From the IMG/VR virus record IMGVR_UViG_3300028833_000012: a stretch of DNA of 20,000 bases. One strand, written 5' to 3'. Of the stretch, positions 14,184 to 20,000 are shown in pieces; positions within the stretch are counted from its first letter, which is position 1, and the number at the start of each line of letters is the position of its first letter. Made by a program: the position numbers and the translations under genes. Source of the DNA: an uncultured virus (IMG/VR IMGVR_UViG_3300028833_000012). Taxonomy: Duplodnaviria > Heunggongvirae > Uroviricota > Caudoviricetes. The notes beneath the pieces were generated by a model. It was not told the origin of the DNA, did no database searches, and was given only the letters and a program-made list of their open reading frames with translations.

Positions 14184-14597
14184 TCAAACAACGGTGAAAT
14201 TCTCATTGTACTTCTGGCGATGGCGTTCACAGTAACGGTTTACAAATTCCTGCGGATCGGTGATGCCCTCAGCATGGAGGTCTTCGCGGATGTCGTCGTC
14301 CATCAGGGATACGGCGCTGTCCAGGCTTACGAAGTCGCCGTTGACGTCAACAAGGCGTTCCGCGAGCTGCCACGCATAAGCGGTGACGAAGTTCGGCGTG
14401 AAGGTCGTGATGACGCGCTCACCGTCGAAGATCGGGCAGTCGTAGAGGTCGTCACAGGCGCGGTCGGCCATGCGCTGCTTGTCAAAGGACAGGTCGCGGG
14501 TGCTTGTGATTTCCTTGCCGTTGACCACAATGTGACGGTCGCCAATCAAGGATACGGTGACTGGGTTCTGGTTTTCGTCATAAGCGCGAATGATCAT
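14184..14597 (-). CDS. AcrIC5-like anti-CRISPR domain fused to an ~80-aa unknown N-terminal domain
   Basis: C-terminal VNGDFVSLDSAVSLMDDDIREDLH...QEFVNRYCERHRQKYNENF resembles AcrIC5 as recalled (NG..IDFDAAVNLMDAELREELH...QEFLDAY..AH..KF..EEF). Confidence 0.7.
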   Translation of the reverse strand: MIIRAYDENQNPVTVSLIGDRHIVVNGKEITSTRDLSFDKQRMADRACDDLYDCPIFDGERVITTFTPNFVTAYAWQLAERLVDVNGDFVSLDSAVSLMDDDIREDLHAEGITDPQEFVNRYCERHRQKYNENFTVV

Positions 14598-14644
14598 GAT
14601 GTTGGCTCCTTTCATTTTCGGGTGGCTTGTTATTCAGAATCTTA

Positions 14645-16822: not shown

Positions 16823-17419
16823 TCAGAATTTCCACGACTTGGTGTGAATGTGGTTCAGGTTGCTTAGCAAAATTCCATTGTGCTCTGTAAATTTCCCGAT
16901 GGTGACAATCTCTCCGGTTCCGTCCATGATTGCCAGTCTAGACCAACCGATCAGAGATTCGATCTCGGTCAGAAGTGCGGCGTCAATGTCGCTGGTTGTG
17001 CGCATCATGCCGGACAAATACCCGGCGACGAATAGCGCGGTGTCGCTGTAGTTGTGTTCGGCGGGATCGGCAGTGACCGGGATAATGCCGTTGTGCGCAA
17101 TGCCAACGGTGCAACGGACATCCAGCGCCTTGGTAATGGAAAGCCTCGACGTCAGTGGAAACGGCTGGGTCATCTCAGGATTTACACCGGCCTGTGTAGA
17201 AATGCGGAAATGATAGACAACCGGATCGGCGGCGGTCAGGCGCTCAGACCGGACGGCCCGCCAGAAATCATCAAACCACATGAACCCCTTATGTATTTCC
17301 ACACGTCCGCCACGGGCCAGCATATAGCCGGCCCCGTGCGGGTTGTGGTTGAACATGGCAAGCAGCTCGGCCTTGGTGGGTTGCCGCGTGCCGCGTTCAG
17401 AAACTGCAATTACACACAT
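16823..17419 (-). CDS. class II (Ntn) glutamine amidotransferase
   Basis: N-terminal MC, NPHGAG, HFRIST, PF, HNGII, SDT. Confidence 0.88.
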   Translation of the reverse strand: MCVIAVSERGTRQPTKAELLAMFNHNPHGAGYMLARGGRVEIHKGFMWFDDFWRAVRSERLTAADPVVYHFRISTQAGVNPEMTQPFPLTSRLSITKALDVRCTVGIAHNGIIPVTADPAEHNYSDTALFVAGYLSGMMRTTSDIDAALLTEIESLIGWSRLAIMDGTGEIVTIGKFTEHNGILLSNLNHIHTKSWKF

Positions 17420-17423
17420 GTGC

Positions 17424-17879
17424 TCAACCTCCGATCACAAATTCGCAAATGTCGCCGTTCGGTTTTTTGCAAAGTTCGCTGTAAATTTTCAAAATATCCT
17501 CGTCGGTGATCGACTCCGCCATTTTACACAGGTCTTTGTAATTCTTTCGCGGGTGCTTTCCGCCGTCCATGTCCCGCTGATGTCCGAAACCAGAGGAGAC
17601 CATAACGCCGGGCGTGCTGCTGGGCCGCCAGAAGGTCAGATCCATCTCGATATGGTAGTGCCCGGCAGGCGTCCGCCAGCGGCAGCCGTACTCGTTTACG
17701 TGATGTTCGACGTTTTCAACATACCAGAGTTTAGCGCGGAGCTCGCCGCCGTCCTTGGTCTCGATGCTGCGATAGATGGTCTTTTCACTCCACAGTACAT
17801 AGTATTTCCAATCAAAATGCCAGTTGCCGGGTGCCTGATTCTCCAACTTGTTTGCCTGTTCTCTCGTGATGGTTGCCAT
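17424..17879 (-). CDS. hypothetical protein (151 aa)
   Basis: SD GAGGTG before ATG 17879. Confidence 0.75.
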   Translation of the reverse strand: MATITREQANKLENQAPGNWHFDWKYYVLWSEKTIYRSIETKDGGELRAKLWYVENVEHHVNEYGCRWRTPAGHYHIEMDLTFWRPSSTPGVMVSSGFGHQRDMDGGKHPRKNYKDLCKMAESITDEDILKIYSELCKKPNGDICEFVIGG

Positions 17880-17913
17880 TGTTTTTTCCACCTCTCACTG
17901 TAATTTGCGGTTT

Positions 17914-17978
17914 TCCCGCGACGCCCTGTAAATTCAGAGCGTTTCGGCTGGGAACCATCCAGCACTCGTCAGGCGGGA
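17914..17978 (-). ncRNA. type I hammerhead ribozyme
   Basis: UCCCGC-CUGACGA-G(U)GCUGG-AUGGUUC-CCAGCC-GAAA-CGCUCUG-AAUUUA-CAGGGCG-UC^GCGGGA: full catalytic core and three stems. Confidence 0.9.
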
Positions 17979-17980
17979 TT

Positions 17981-18178
17981 TTACAGTTGGCCTTGTAAAA
18001 CCTCATTCAGAAACCAGTCGTAGCCAGGGACGCGGGACCCGTCCGGGCGGATATACTCGACACGGAATGTTTGCGGGTTCATCCGAACGGCGACGCCGGG
18101 AGCGTGCTGCGCTTCCGCAAGCTTGACGGCGGCACGCTCGTGCGGAAATTGCTTGAAGCTGGGATTGAACATTGTCAT
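17981..18178 (-). CDS. small hypothetical protein (65 aa)
   Basis: SD GGAGG. Confidence 0.7.
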   Translation of the reverse strand: MTMFNPSFKQFPHERAAVKLAEAQHAPGVAVRMNPQTFRVEYIRPDGSRVPGYDWFLNEVLQGQL

Positions 18179-18204
18179 GGTTTACACCCTCCACTGTATT
18201 TTTT

Positions 18205-18227
18205 GCCCGTGTTGCCGATAGCGCAGC
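18205..18227 (-). ncRNA. small pseudoknot-like motif, copy 1
   Basis: GCTG-CGCTAT-CGGC-AAC-ACGGGC. Confidence 0.45.
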
Positions 18228-18240
18228 GGTTTTTTACGGT

Positions 18241-18591
18241 TTACGCTGTAATTTTCTGCACCTGATCCCTTGTAAACCAGAACGCCTTGCGGAGATAGCA
18301 GCGGCCGCCCGTGACTGTTTCGCCGTCCGTATCGCCGTCGCCGTCTCCATCAGAATCGGCCCGGCGTCCGCTCTTGTACTTCCAGACCGGGAACGCGGCC
18401 CGCGCGTGTTCGCCCTTTTTGACGATAAAGCCGAGAGACTTCCAGCCATTAAAAGTGTGAATTTCTTCCGGCAGTGCAATCCTGACCGGTTCGCCGTTTT
18501 CGTTTTCGCCGTCCATGTATCCGGCAATTTTCAGAACGCCTTCCTGCATCAGCCGTACAGACTCATTCAGAATGATTTGATTGTTTGTCAT
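18241..18591 (-). CDS. ArdC N-terminal-like ssDNA-binding domain protein
   Basis: HTFNGWKSLGFIVKKGEHA...W....F...QV; lacks the ArdC zincin domain. Confidence 0.65.
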   Translation of the reverse strand: MTNNQIILNESVRLMQEGVLKIAGYMDGENENGEPVRIALPEEIHTFNGWKSLGFIVKKGEHARAAFPVWKYKSGRRADSDGDGDGDTDGETVTGGRCYLRKAFWFTRDQVQKITA

Positions 18592-18635
18592 AGCGCCCGC
18601 CTTCCTTTCTGTTTTTCCGTCGTGTGGTGTAAGTT

Positions 18636-18709
18636 TGCGCTGACTCTGTATTCTTCCGGGCTTGTCACCGGCGGCCGCCATTCAGAAGGTGACCGGCTAC
18701 ATTAGCGCA
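18636..18709 (-). ncRNA. type-P1 twister ribozyme
   Basis: UGCGC-U^AA-UGUA-GC-[CGGUC..GGCCG]-CCGG-UGAC-AAGC-CCGG-AAGAA-UACA-GA-GUCA-GCGCA: P1-P4 and both pseudoknots can form. Confidence 0.9.
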
Positions 18710-18724
18710 CCGGGCCGGGAACCC

Positions 18725-19690
18725 TCAGTCAAGGATCCCCGTTTCCGGCTTCACGTTGTGCTCAATCTCTACCATCTCATGCGGCATGAGCTGTCCTACG
18801 CTGTCAATCCGTTCGGCGACGTACTGATTGCACCCGGAAAATATAGCGGTCACGCTGTCGCACTGTTTCCATGTCAGCCGCTTCACACGGTCCACAAGGT
18901 GGAAGATAATTTCCATCGTTGCGCGGAATGTTTCAAAGTTGCTTTGCCCGCCCACAAGCCGAATCTCAATGCGTCCGCTGTTGTAGTGCCCGAGATTAAA
19001 GCTGCAATGATGGTTTGACATGAAATGGTTAAGGTCCATGCCCTGCGCGTTGAGATACTCCATCCGGTCACAATAGAATGTATCGCCGGTTCGGTTCAAC
19101 AGTCGGCACATGAGCTCAAAGTGACGGTTGATAATGTAATACAGTTTGCGGATTGCCTCCGCTTGATTCTCTTCAGTCGTTCCGAAACATGCGTTTGAAA
19201 TGTTTACGTGCATGCCGCAGTTGCCGGACCGGCTACAGGAAATGCCGAACAGCGGGAAATACTTGTCATACATTGCTTTGAATGCCGGATACATATTGCG
19301 CACGGCCTCTTTTGTCATCGGCATTGTGATGCATTCCGCGCTTGAATCTCCGCCCAAGCTTCCATCGCGCTGCATCTTGAAGAGCCCTGACGGGAAAAGC
19401 GGAAAGATGATACTATCGTAGACATTTGCAAGAATGTTGTCACTGTTGATCCCATAGCATTCCGTCTCAATCTCAACACCGTAACCTTTGACGGGCTTTC
19501 CGGTTTCAAGCGTGCGGCCGTCGTCCTGTATCGTGATCCATCTGTCAGTCGTGCGCAGTTTGAAACCGTTTTCATATCCCATCTGCGCATAGCTTTCGGA
19601 ATGTTCCATGCGGCCGCGGCCGTTGTCATGATAGGCCTGGACGTGTGCAATCCTGACGTCGATTGCCTGTTGATTCTTCTTGCTTGCCAT
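18725..19690 (-). CDS. putative amidoligase (COOH-NH2 ligase, glutamine-synthetase fold)
   Basis: GVEIET, RDGSL, AECIT, CGMHVNI, IEIRL motifs; ATG at 19690 after AGGAAGG. Confidence 0.8.
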   Translation of the reverse strand: MASKKNQQAIDVRIAHVQAYHDNGRGRMEHSESYAQMGYENGFKLRTTDRWITIQDDGRTLETGKPVKGYGVEIETECYGINSDNILANVYDSIIFPLFPSGLFKMQRDGSLGGDSSAECITMPMTKEAVRNMYPAFKAMYDKYFPLFGISCSRSGNCGMHVNISNACFGTTEENQAEAIRKLYYIINRHFELMCRLLNRTGDTFYCDRMEYLNAQGMDLNHFMSNHHCSFNLGHYNSGRIEIRLVGGQSNFETFRATMEIIFHLVDRVKRLTWKQCDSVTAIFSGCNQYVAERIDSVGQLMPHEMVEIEHNVKPETGILD

Positions 19691-19734
19691 TGTGATCCGC
19701 CTTCCTGCCGCTTGTGCGGCCGTCGCTTTGCTAT

Positions 19735-19833
19735 CCGGATATATCCGGCTGACAATGGATATTATACGGATATTTGCCGACTTTAACATACCATAGACGG
19801 ATTTCGTTATGGATAATACGGATAAAATCGGAT
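19735..19833 (-). promoter_or_regulatory. putative promoter/operator region of the minus-strand operon
   Basis: Perfect TATAAT (19766-19761) with no clear -35; palindrome CCGGATATATCCGG (19735-19748); seven GGAT boxes at roughly 10-bp phasing. Confidence 0.55.
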
Positions 19834-19873: not shown

Positions 19874-20000
19874 GATCCGGTTTTTCCGTCTGCGGCTGGA
19901 AGATCCGGTTTTTCCGTCTGCGGCTGGAAGATCCGGTTTTTCCGTCTGCGGCTGGAAGATCCGGTTTTTCCGTCTGCGGCTGGAAGATCCGGTTTTTCCG
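19874..20000. repeat. perfect 28-bp tandem repeat, at least 4.5 copies, truncated by the window edge
   Basis: Unit GATCCGGTTTTTCCGTCTGCGGCTGGAA at 19874, 19902, 19930, 19958 and 19986 (partial). Confidence 0.95.

What the first reader, a model, noticed from the sequence alone, without database searches (positions are those of the whole stretch)
17905..17978. Type I hammerhead ribozyme with a likely loop II-tail pseudoknot
Seen: stem I UCCCGC/GCGGGA, core CUGACGA, stem II GCUGG/CCAGC, GAAA, stem III CGCUCUG/CAGGGCG and a GUC cleavage triplet (cut between 17920 and 17919). Loop II UGGUU can pair with AACCG just 3' of stem I. It begins 2 nt after a stop codon and cuts about 40 nt upstream of the next start.
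Basis: partly seen in the sequence, partly recalled or inferred. Interest (0 to 1): 0.75.

Follow-up and report, generated by a model that had tools for sequence, protein, structure and literature searches.

The report
Phage hammerhead ribozyme, with twister upstream
The flagged sequence is a genuine-looking self-cutting hammerhead RNA sitting between two genes of a sheep-gut phage; this kind of element has been known in phages since 2011, and a second self-cutting RNA (a twister) sits one gene gap upstream.

Summary
Every conserved hammerhead core base, three stems, a GUC cleavage triplet (cut 17920|17919) and open stem I (type I) are present.

Rfam misses it at curated thresholds: RAGATH-1-hammerhead 33.5 bits against 56.3, Hammerhead_1 17.3 against 34. 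A covariance model built from 51 other viral elements of the same build scores it 70.0 bits, the only hit in the window.

The stems co-vary strongly in 52 aligned sequences. The loop II/3'-tail pseudoknot is supported by the family, not by this copy alone.

Placement is stereotyped: stop codon 2 nt before, start codon 40 nt after the cut.

It is not a RAGATH-1 hammerhead. It is a new member of the pseudoknot hammerheads of phages described by Perreault et al. 2011. This scan has already reported such phage hammerheads on other DNA.

Extra: a sub-threshold type-P1 twister ribozyme lies at 18707..18638 on the same strand. With the hammerhead it would bracket a 784-nt two-gene RNA.

No RNA evidence of cleavage was obtained. 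Biological role is inferred: processing of the operon transcript.

The parts
17973..17978 (-). Hammerhead stem I, 5' strand (UCCCGC)
   Evidence: Pairs with 17914-17919. 5 of 6 stem I pairs carry compensatory changes in the 52-sequence family alignment.
17966..17972 (-). Catalytic core C3-A9 (CUGACGA, N7 = C)
   Evidence: Matches the consensus CUGANGA. These columns are invariant in alignment A1, though the search pattern fixed them.
17946..17965 (-). Stem II: G10.1:C11.1, bulged U17964, GCUGG/CCAGC, 7-nt loop AUGGUUC (17952-17958)
   Evidence: 5 of 6 stem II pairs have compensatory changes. The extra bulged base is present in 27 of 52 family members (counted from the stem II lengths).
17943..17945 (-). 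Core G12 A13 A14
   Evidence: matches the consensus.
17921..17942 (-). Stem III (8 bp including A15.1:U16.1) with loop AAUUUA
   Evidence: It is predicted in the MFE and centroid folds. 3 of the 5 counted pairs are compensatory and 100% of cells are paired.
17919..17920 (-). Predicted cleavage site: after C17 (17920), before G1.1 (17919)
   Evidence: Position of the GUC triplet in the consensus architecture. Not tested experimentally.
17914..17919 (-). Stem I, 3' strand (GCGGGA)
17908..17912 (-). Tail AACCG, proposed pseudoknot partner of loop II UGGUU (17953-17957)
   Evidence: Complementarity seen. Family covariation. The same UGGUU/AACCG pairing occurs in L060 and L071, and extended to AUGGUU/AACCGU in L080. 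Not significant for this copy alone.
17880..17907 (-). Rest of the 40-nt leader of the downstream gene, with Shine-Dalgarno-like GAGAGGUGG (17888-17896)
   Evidence: The leader is similar in the orthologous locus L213, where it is 39 nt long.
17424..17879 (-). Downstream gene, 151 aa, function unknown
   Evidence: A 42%-identical homolog also follows a hammerhead in L213.
17981..18178 (-). Upstream gene, 65 aa, function unknown; stop codon 2 nt before stem I
18241..18591 (-). Gene with a weak ArdC N-terminal domain match. Its start is probably ATG 18591, not the listed 18681.
   Evidence: Pfam PF08401 19.5 bits, below the cut-off of 22.6. GAAAGGAAGG lies before ATG 18591. The choice of start is an inference.
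18638..18707 (-). Sub-threshold type-P1 twister ribozyme; predicted cut U18704|A18703
   Evidence: RF03160 46 bits against a gathering score of 67.2, E 1.6e-7 over the window. Its two departures from consensus are mutually complementary (GAC:GUC for CCC:GGG), a co-variation seen in 37 of 41 twister-like viral matches.
18725..19789 (-). First visible gene of the operon, 354 aa, phrog_16683, function unknown
   Evidence: Relation to Amidoligase_2 not established.

Best explanation
Minus-strand 17978..17905 encodes a self-cleaving type I hammerhead ribozyme inside a leftward multi-gene operon of a phage of gut Clostridia.

As the operon is transcribed, stems II and III and the core form first. 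When the 3' strand of stem I and the tail emerge, stem I closes and the tail AACCG pairs with loop II (UGGUU). This holds stems I and II side by side, which is the active geometry. The 2'-OH of C17920 then attacks the adjacent phosphate.

The upstream RNA ends at C17920 with a 2',3'-cyclic phosphate and keeps its stop codon and almost the whole ribozyme as a structured 3' end. The downstream RNA starts at G17919 with a 5'-OH and a 40-nt leader carrying a strong ribosome-binding site.

The likely effect is to split the polycistronic message so that neighbouring genes can differ in stability and translation. Together with a twister ribozyme at 18707..18638, it would release a 784-nt two-gene RNA.

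Shown here: the motif, family membership, covariation and stereotyped placement. Inferred: actual cleavage, the role of the pseudoknot in this copy, and the consequence for expression.
For: - All consensus core bases and the three core-adjacent pairs are present; these are the criteria of Perreault et al. quoted.
- The leave-one-out model R2 (51 other viral elements) scores it 70.0 bits, E 1.2e-18, the sole hit in the window.
- In 52 aligned elements, 91.9% of cells pair against 25.5-41.8% in slid registers. 13 of the 17 stem pairs and 2 of the 5 pseudoknot pairs show compensatory changes.
- Of 124 distinct pattern matches in viral contigs, 92 have all three stems; I estimate roughly 4 in 10,000 by chance.
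- Pseudoknot. In 11 elements with the same stems I and II, loop position 5 and its tail partner co-vary as U:A or C:G in 11 of 11.
- The hammerhead fold, at -28.6 kcal/mol without the pseudoknot, is within 0.8 kcal/mol of the MFE.
- Context: in the long-stem-II class (n = 52) the upstream ORF ends a median of -1 nt from stem I (found in 51), and a start with a Shine-Dalgarno-like motif follows a median of 34 nt after the cut (found in 47). The window's values are +2 and 40.
- All flanking genes are on the same strand.
- An ortholog with identical stems I and II and core precedes a 42%-identical homolog of the downstream gene in L213.
- Perreault et al. 2011 showed cleavage of clustered prophage hammerheads in vitro and in E. 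coli, and showed that such pseudoknots are needed for fast cleavage (passages read).
Against: - There is no experimental or read-level evidence of cleavage. RNA-library contigs of two runs cover parts of both flanking genes but not the ribozyme.
- The element is below the curated Rfam thresholds of every hammerhead family.
- This copy's pseudoknot is one base out of the family's usual register, because of an extra A in the linker. It is not above chance by itself: 7434 of 20000 shuffled tails pair as well.
- Among the 11 closest elements, the middle pseudoknot pair is mismatched in 6.
- RNAfold's MFE is a competing fold, 0.8 kcal/mol better than the pseudoknot-free hammerhead fold.
- My stem filters selected for pairing, so the percentages of paired cells in the stems are inflated. 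The pseudoknot was not selected for.
- The biological role of phage hammerheads is still described as largely elusive (review PMC6765202, passages read).
Confidence: 0.8

Rival explanations
1. The motif is a real hammerhead by descent but is catalytically slow or dead in this phage. It would then be a relic kept only as an RNA hairpin or spacer, and the transcript would stay polycistronic.
For: There is no cleavage evidence. The pseudoknot register is offset by one base relative to most relatives. A competing MFE fold exists. Perreault et al. report some hammerhead-like sequences that were inactive in their assays.
Against: No core position deviates and all core-adjacent pairs are canonical. 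The same UGGUU/AACCG pairing is found in three other family members. The family model score of 70 bits is typical of the other members, which score 31-77 bits.
Confidence: 0.08
2. It cleaves, but its main role is not simple operon processing. One version: it acts as a boundary or insulator of a movable gene cassette, giving the downstream gene a fixed 5' end whatever lies upstream. Another version: together with the twister, it supplies structured, ligatable ends to a stable or circular RNA.
For: - Window, L213 and a 90-95% relative in DNA run X5 keep ribozyme plus downstream gene, but differ immediately upstream of stem I.
- Of 132 locus pairs alike in at least one flank, 106 share only one flank.
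- Flanking genes are very diverse: 212 flank fragments fall into 165 clusters.
- The twister cuts near its 5' end and the type I hammerhead near its 3' end, so the 784-nt RNA between them would keep both ribozyme bodies.
Against: - Hammerheads resemble each other, so BLAST homology runs through them whatever their ancestry.
- The ribozyme fills the intergenic gap, so ordinary gene-boundary mosaicism gives the same picture. There was no control set and the pairs are not independent.
- Upstream-only pairs (83) outnumber downstream-only pairs (23), so the ribozyme does not generally travel with the downstream gene.
- Perreault et al. looked for spliced or circular products and found none.
- A twister followed by this hammerhead class on the same strand was seen in only 1 of 5 other twister-bearing records.
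Confidence: 0.12
3. It is a member of the RAGATH-1 hammerhead family (Rfam RF03152), which gave the best Rfam match.
For: RF03152 is the top Rfam hit, 33.5 bits, E 2.9e-4 on the 181-nt stretch. The A-rich 5' linker UGUAAAAU resembles the family's UAUAAAAU.
Against: The score is below the gathering score of 56.3. In the true RAGATH-1 copies I fetched, stem II is replaced by pairing with the loop of a 5' hairpin; for example CCAGG/CUGG, CCUAGG/CUAGG and CCCGGG/CCGGG co-vary, and L004 and L013 score 85.3 and 78.3 bits. The window element has an ordinary 5-bp stem II hairpin and no such 5' hairpin.
Confidence: 0.02
4. It is a chance match to a short degenerate motif.
For: The hammerhead core is short, and Rfam scores are sub-threshold.
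Against: 70.0 bits, E 1.2e-18 with a model that excludes this sequence, and it is the only hit in 40 kb of searched strand. It sits exactly in an intergenic gap on the coding strand, with the family's typical spacing.
Confidence: 0.01

Closest known systems
Pseudoknot-stabilised hammerhead ribozymes of phage and prophage intergenic regions (Perreault et al. 2011, PMC3088659; passages read)
   Same: Consensus core; a pseudoknot linking the stem I side to loop II instead of loop-loop contacts; location between co-directional genes of a phage; neighbouring genes variable; occurrence in arrays in relatives; proposed role in cutting long phage transcripts.
   Different: Nothing fundamental. This copy has a 1-nt longer linker before the pseudoknot than most relatives, and a bulged base after G10.1 that is shared by 27 of 52 relatives. 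I could not see the paper's figures or its Dataset S1, so I cannot say whether this exact subfamily is in it.
RAGATH-1 hammerhead (Rfam RF03152)
   Same: Type I topology, 5-6 bp stem I, long stem III, A-rich 5' linker, viral habitat.
   Different: RAGATH-1 has no stem II hairpin; that helix is made with the loop of a 5' hairpin. Here stem II is a normal hairpin and the pseudoknot is made with the 3' tail. The score is 33.5 against 56.3 bits.
Rfam Hammerhead_1 (RF00163)
   Same: Type I topology and core.
   Different: The model expects short stems II and III. The window scores 17.3 against 34 bits. None of the 16 loci of this class that I tested reaches any Rfam hammerhead gathering score.
Twister/hammerhead-associated gene neighbourhoods of bacteria and phages (review PMC6765202, passages read; original papers recalled, not read)
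   Same: A twister and a hammerhead in the same operon. RAGATH-36 and RAGATH-4 RNAs lie beside an orthologous hammerhead in L321.
   Different: Both ribozymes here are sub-threshold in Rfam. The twister carries a GAC:GUC variant of its pseudoknot in place of CCC:GGG.

Membership tests
Hammerhead ribozyme, type I | Core C3 U4 G5 A6 N7 G8 A9, G12 A13 A14, A15.1:U16.1, H17 | tested here: met
   CUGACGA, GAA, A17942:U17921 and C17920. These are the criteria quoted from Perreault et al..
Hammerhead ribozyme, type I | Three helices with canonical pairs next to the core (1.1-2.1, 10.1-11.1, 15.1-16.1) | tested here: met
   G17919:C17973, G17965:C17946 and A17942:U17921. The helices co-vary in the family.
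Hammerhead ribozyme, type I | Stems II and III closed by loops, stem I open | tested here: met
Hammerhead ribozyme, type I | Tertiary contact holding stems I and II together (here a loop II/3'-tail pseudoknot) | tested here: inconclusive
   The family supports it. In this copy 5 pairs are possible, but they are offset by one base and not significant alone.
Hammerhead ribozyme, type I | Rfam RF00163 gathering score (34 bits) | tested here: not met
   17.3 bits. The model also misses all 16 tested loci of this viral class, so this reflects the model rather than the RNA.
Hammerhead ribozyme, type I | Site-specific self-cleavage giving 2',3'-cyclic phosphate and 5'-OH ends | not testable with these tools
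   RNA-library contigs do not cover the site.
Viral type I hammerheads with long stem II and tail pseudoknot (model R2, built here) | Score with a model built without the window sequence | tested here: met
   70.0 bits, E 1.2e-18. Other members score 31-77 bits.
RAGATH-1 hammerhead (RF03152) | Stem II formed as a pseudoknot with the loop of a 5' hairpin | tested here: not met
   An ordinary stem II hairpin is present and no 5' hairpin is found. The contrast with true members is visible.
RAGATH-1 hammerhead (RF03152) | Gathering score 56.3 bits | tested here: not met
   33.5 bits.
Twister ribozyme, type P1 (RF03160), for the second element at 18707..18638 | Gathering score 67.2 bits | tested here: not met
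   46 bits. The five other records with the same variant score 41.8-47.7 bits.
Twister ribozyme, type P1 (RF03160), for the second element at 18707..18638 | P1, P2 and P4 helices, conserved loop bases, and the pseudoknot between the P4 loop and the 3' internal loop | tested here: met
   Full-length alignment to the model. GAC:GUC replaces CCC:GGG, and 37 of 41 twister-like viral matches with a non-consensus base keep 3 of 3 pairs, against 13 of 68 other matches. The name 'T2' for this pseudoknot is recalled, not taken from a call.

The most novel reading that the evidence does not exclude
The twister (which cuts near its own 5' end) and the type I hammerhead (which cuts near its own 3' end) are oriented so that the 784-nt RNA between the cuts keeps both ribozyme bodies as structured end caps. 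That RNA carries the ArdC-N-like gene and the 65-aa gene. Its ends would be a 5'-OH and a 2',3'-cyclic phosphate, which (from recalled knowledge) are the substrates of RtcB-type ligases. The phage may therefore make an exonuclease-resistant, or even circular, messenger for an early accessory gene pair. More generally, these ribozymes may act as natural insulators that let accessory genes be swapped between phages without changing their expression.
Probability: 0.1. Interest if true: 0.7.

Novelty: new member of a known kind. Interest (0 to 1): 0.3.

Why it matters
On its own it matters little: it is one more phage hammerhead of a kind described in 2011. There are three modest points of value.

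1. Curated Rfam thresholds miss this whole viral class. None of the 16 class loci tested has a hammerhead hit at gathering score, and no hammerhead family is reported at E <= 0.01 in 12 loci where my family model finds 26 elements. The GAC:GUC twister variant is missed too. Standard annotation therefore under-counts ribozymes in phage genomes.

2. The family shows a very regular layout: stop codon at the ribozyme's 5' edge and the next start about 34 nt after the cut. This gives a concrete handle on the still-open question of what these ribozymes do.

3. This operon offers a compact natural test case: two different ribozyme classes bracketing two small genes, beside a protein with an anti-CRISPR AcrIC5 domain.

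Tried and rejected
- **RNA evidence.** Two sheep-gut metatranscriptome runs hold 100%-identical short contigs (17583-17787, 18133-18421, 18412-18605, 18508-18800 and 18760-18800, depth about 4). None covers the hammerhead or the twister, so nothing can be said about cleavage or even about transcription.
- **Protein-based search.** Searching for relatives of the downstream gene in viral contigs gave one 31%-identical locus, L003, which has no hammerhead at E <= 1.
- **blastn.** Searching 17400-18700 against GenBank phages gave no match.
- **Strict metagenome pattern.** Fixing this copy's stem I and tail gave 0 hits.
- **Mis-specified twister pattern.** My first twister pattern had one base too many. 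It returned 9 matches that look like chance hits in coding sequence and did not match the window. I discarded it and corrected it.
- **RAGATH-1 membership.** Rejected on architecture.
- **Terminator or promoter at the site.** None on the minus strand near 17900-18000.
- **Amidoligase link.** Four orthologous hammerheads follow Amidoligase_2 genes. The window's 354-aa protein shows only E = 0.04 to one of them and has no Pfam hit at E <= 10, so no relation is established.
- **Function of the flanking proteins.** No PHROG or Pfam family for the 151-aa and 65-aa proteins. The Atlas gives only unnamed viral clusters.
- **Mosaic-junction idea.** Counts are suggestive but confounded and uncontrolled, so I keep it only as a lead.
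- **Earlier notes on this genome.** None.

Full report
**What is there.**
Read on the minus strand, window 17978..17905 contains a complete hammerhead motif.
- Stem I is UCCCGC/GCGGGA.
- The core is CUGACGA.
- Stem II is G:C, a bulged U, then GCUGG/CCAGC closed by the loop AUGGUUC.
- GAA follows, then an 8-bp stem III closed by AAUUUA, then GUC.
- The predicted cut lies between C17920 and G17919.
- Stems II and III are capped and stem I is open, so the topology is type I.
- The stop codon of the upstream 65-aa ORF (TAA 17983-17981) lies 2 nt before stem I.
- The ATG of the downstream 151-aa ORF (17879) lies 40 nt after the cut, behind GAGAGGUGG.

**Is it more than chance?**
Rfam reports nothing in the window at gathering thresholds. 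With permissive filters the best matches are RAGATH-1-hammerhead (33.5 bits, gathering 56.3) and Hammerhead_1 (17.3 bits, gathering 34).

I therefore collected relatives without relying on Rfam. Of the 124 distinct matches, 92 have all three stems; I estimate a chance expectation of roughly 4 in 10,000.

By stem II length alone, 52 distinct elements including the window form a long-stem-II class and 39 a short-stem-II class. In the 52-sequence alignment, 91.9% of cells pair against 25.5-41.8% when the partner is slid. Compensatory changes occur in 5 of 6 stem I pairs, 5 of 6 stem II pairs and 3 of 5 stem III pairs. My filter selected for stem pairing, so the paired percentages are inflated, but the richness of pair types is not an artefact of that.

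A covariance model built from the 51 other sequences scores the window element 70.0 bits, E 1.2e-18. It is the only hit in the window on either strand. The virus record holding the window (24,854 nt, estimated 37% complete) has no second copy.

**The pseudoknot.**
In the window, loop II UGGUU (17957-17953) can pair with AACCG (17912-17908). Taken alone this means little: with G-U pairs and any register allowed, 7434 of 20000 shuffled tails pair equally well. The family gives the evidence.
- In the 52-sequence alignment, whose selection ignored the pseudoknot, the four in-register pairs are formed in 91.8% of cells against 18.3-59.6% when slid. There are 9 compensatory cells against 2.7 +/- 1.4 in shuffles, and 0 of 500 shuffles reach that. 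Two of the tail columns were fixed as A by my pattern.
It shows many different complementary pairs, for example GACUCA/UGAGUC, UGGAAUC/GAUUCCA, AACCC/GGGUU and UUGGCUU/AAGCCAA. In it 44 of 70 have 4 or more pseudoknot pairs against 28.5 +/- 3.0 after re-pairing loops with other tails, with 0 of 1000 permutations reaching that.
- In 11 elements that share the window's stems I and II, loop position 5 and its tail partner are U:A or C:G in 11 of 11. The middle pair, however, is mismatched in 6 of 11.
- The window's pairing is shifted by one base relative to most relatives because of an extra A in the linker. The same UGGUU/AACCG pair occurs in L060 and L071, and extended by one pair in L080.

So 'likely pseudoknot' is a fair description, not a proven one.

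**What it is not.**
The best Rfam hit, RAGATH-1-hammerhead, is a different architecture. In the true members that I fetched, there is no stem II hairpin. The segment after the core pairs with the loop of a 5' hairpin and co-varies with it. L004 and L013 score 85.3 and 78.3 bits. The window element has an ordinary stem II and no such hairpin.

**Context and host.**
The element lies in a run of minus-strand genes from 19789 down to about 11477. That run includes an FtsK-like ATPase, a protein with an AcrIC5 anti-CRISPR domain (56.9 bits) and a weak ArdC-N match (19.5 bits, below cut-off).

The record is viral. Its primase/helicase is 40% identical to those of phages of Anaerostipes (36-38% to those of Roseburia and Ruminococcus phages). 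The DNA occurs in sheep-gut runs. Hammerheads with identical stems I and II occur in gut and rumen MAGs, mostly Clostridia. A host among gut Clostridia is therefore likely, but this is an inference.

Placement is stereotyped across the class. The upstream ORF ends a median of -1 nt from stem I (found for 51 of 52). A start with a Shine-Dalgarno-like motif follows a median of 34 nt after the cut (found for 47 of 52).

Flanking genes are very diverse: 212 fragments fall into 165 clusters. In relatives the class forms dense same-strand arrays: 26 hits in 12 loci, two of which overlap on one contig. Four copies follow Amidoligase_2 genes.

One metagenome locus, L213, has an ortholog with identical stem I, core, bulge and stem II, and a 39-nt leader. 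It sits in front of a 42%-identical homolog of the downstream gene, but behind an unrelated upstream gene.

**A second ribozyme.**
A permissive Rfam pass over the whole window found a type-P1 twister match at 18707..18638 on the same strand: 46 bits, gathering 67.2, E 1.6e-7. It lies between the 354-aa gene and the ArdC-N-like gene, whose real start is probably ATG 18591.

Its two departures from consensus (UGAC for UCCC, GAGUC for GAGGG) are complementary. Among 41 twister-like viral matches with a non-consensus first base, 37 keep all three pairs, against 13 of 68 other matches. Six other loci carry the same GAC:GUC variant. Five records with this variant score 41.8-47.7 bits, all below threshold.

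The predicted cuts at 18704|18703 and 17920|17919 would release a 784-nt RNA that carries two genes and keeps both ribozyme bodies at its ends. In 1 of 5 other records with this twister variant, a hammerhead of this class follows on the same strand about 1.2 kb downstream.

**How it most likely works.**
Co-transcriptional folding, docking of stems I and II by the tail pseudoknot, and cleavage after C17 would split the operon RNA. The upstream piece keeps its stop codon and a structured 3' end. The downstream piece starts with a 5'-OH and a short leader with a strong ribosome-binding site. This matches the proposal of Perreault et al. that long phage transcripts are processed into gene-length mRNAs. 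It also matches the 2019 review's statement that processing could give transcripts of different stability or translation, although the role remains largely elusive. Whether cleavage stabilises or destabilises the downstream message in a Clostridia host cannot be told from sequence.

**What failed or stayed open.**
RNA-library contigs do not cover either ribozyme. The mosaic-junction idea rests on 106 of 132 related pairs sharing only one flank, plus the X5 and L213 observations. It is confounded by hammerhead self-similarity and by ordinary gene-boundary mosaicism.

**Verdict.**
This is a real, well-formed type I hammerhead with a probable tail pseudoknot. It is a new member of a kind known since 2011, and this scan has already reported such elements in other genomes (one search lists 8 of 22 notes). 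Interest is low to moderate. It is raised slightly by the neighbouring twister and by the finding that curated models miss both classes.

Noticed in passing
window 18638-18707 (minus strand): Sub-threshold type-P1 twister ribozyme (RF03160, 46 bits against 67.2) in the gap between the 354-aa gene and the ArdC-N-like gene. Its pseudoknot carries a compensated GAC:GUC variant that six other viral loci share. With the hammerhead it brackets a 784-nt two-gene RNA.
   Followed up: partly
window 14184-14615 (minus strand): A 143-aa protein whose C-terminal 52 residues match the anti-CRISPR AcrIC5 domain (PF22147, 56.9 bits, cut-off 27), in the same operon as the two ribozymes.
   Followed up: no
window 18241-18591 (minus strand): Weak match to the N-terminal domain of the anti-restriction factor ArdC (PF08401, 19.5 bits, below the cut-off of 22.6). 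The listed ORF start at 18681 lies inside the twister, so ATG 18591, behind GAAAGGAAGG, is the likelier start.
   Followed up: partly
window 19874-20000: A perfect tandem repeat, 28 nt x 4.5 copies, running to the window's end. This is almost the end of the viral record, upstream of the minus-strand operon. It could be a regulatory or terminal repeat, or an assembly effect.
   Followed up: no
L312, L313, L314/L315, L316 (gut and rumen Clostridia MAG contigs): Dense same-strand arrays of this hammerhead class, up to six within 3 kb, beginning after Amidoligase_2 (PF12224) genes and separating small genes, including DUF7678. Rfam reports no hammerhead family there at E <= 0.01.
   Followed up: partly
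L321:388-532, 873-953 and 2814-2945: RAGATH-36 RNA (96.5 bits, above threshold; a second copy at 42.8 bits) and a RAGATH-4-like match (43.8 bits) lie beside an orthologous hammerhead in a viral contig.
   Followed up: no
L004-L057 (viral contigs): In the classic RAGATH-1 hammerheads fetched as a by-product, the short segment replacing stem II co-varies with the loop of the 5' hairpin (for example CCAGG/CUGG, CCUAGG/CUAGG, CUUGGG/CCAAG). This shows directly that stem II is a pseudoknot in that family.
   Followed up: partly
viral loci, short-stem-II class (for example L112, L113, L122): A second viral type I hammerhead class has a 4-bp stem II and a conserved loop UGAGAUU or UGAAAUU. It shows little tail complementarity, so it probably uses another tertiary contact. 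L112-L114 hold six copies (three, two and one) on one 92.7-kb contig.
   Followed up: no
window 17939-17976, in DNA run X5: A 90-95% relative keeps the downstream gene and the ribozyme, but its contig continues as unlike sequence beyond 17976, near the ribozyme's 5' edge. Three differences inside the ribozyme could not be read from the output.
   Followed up: partly
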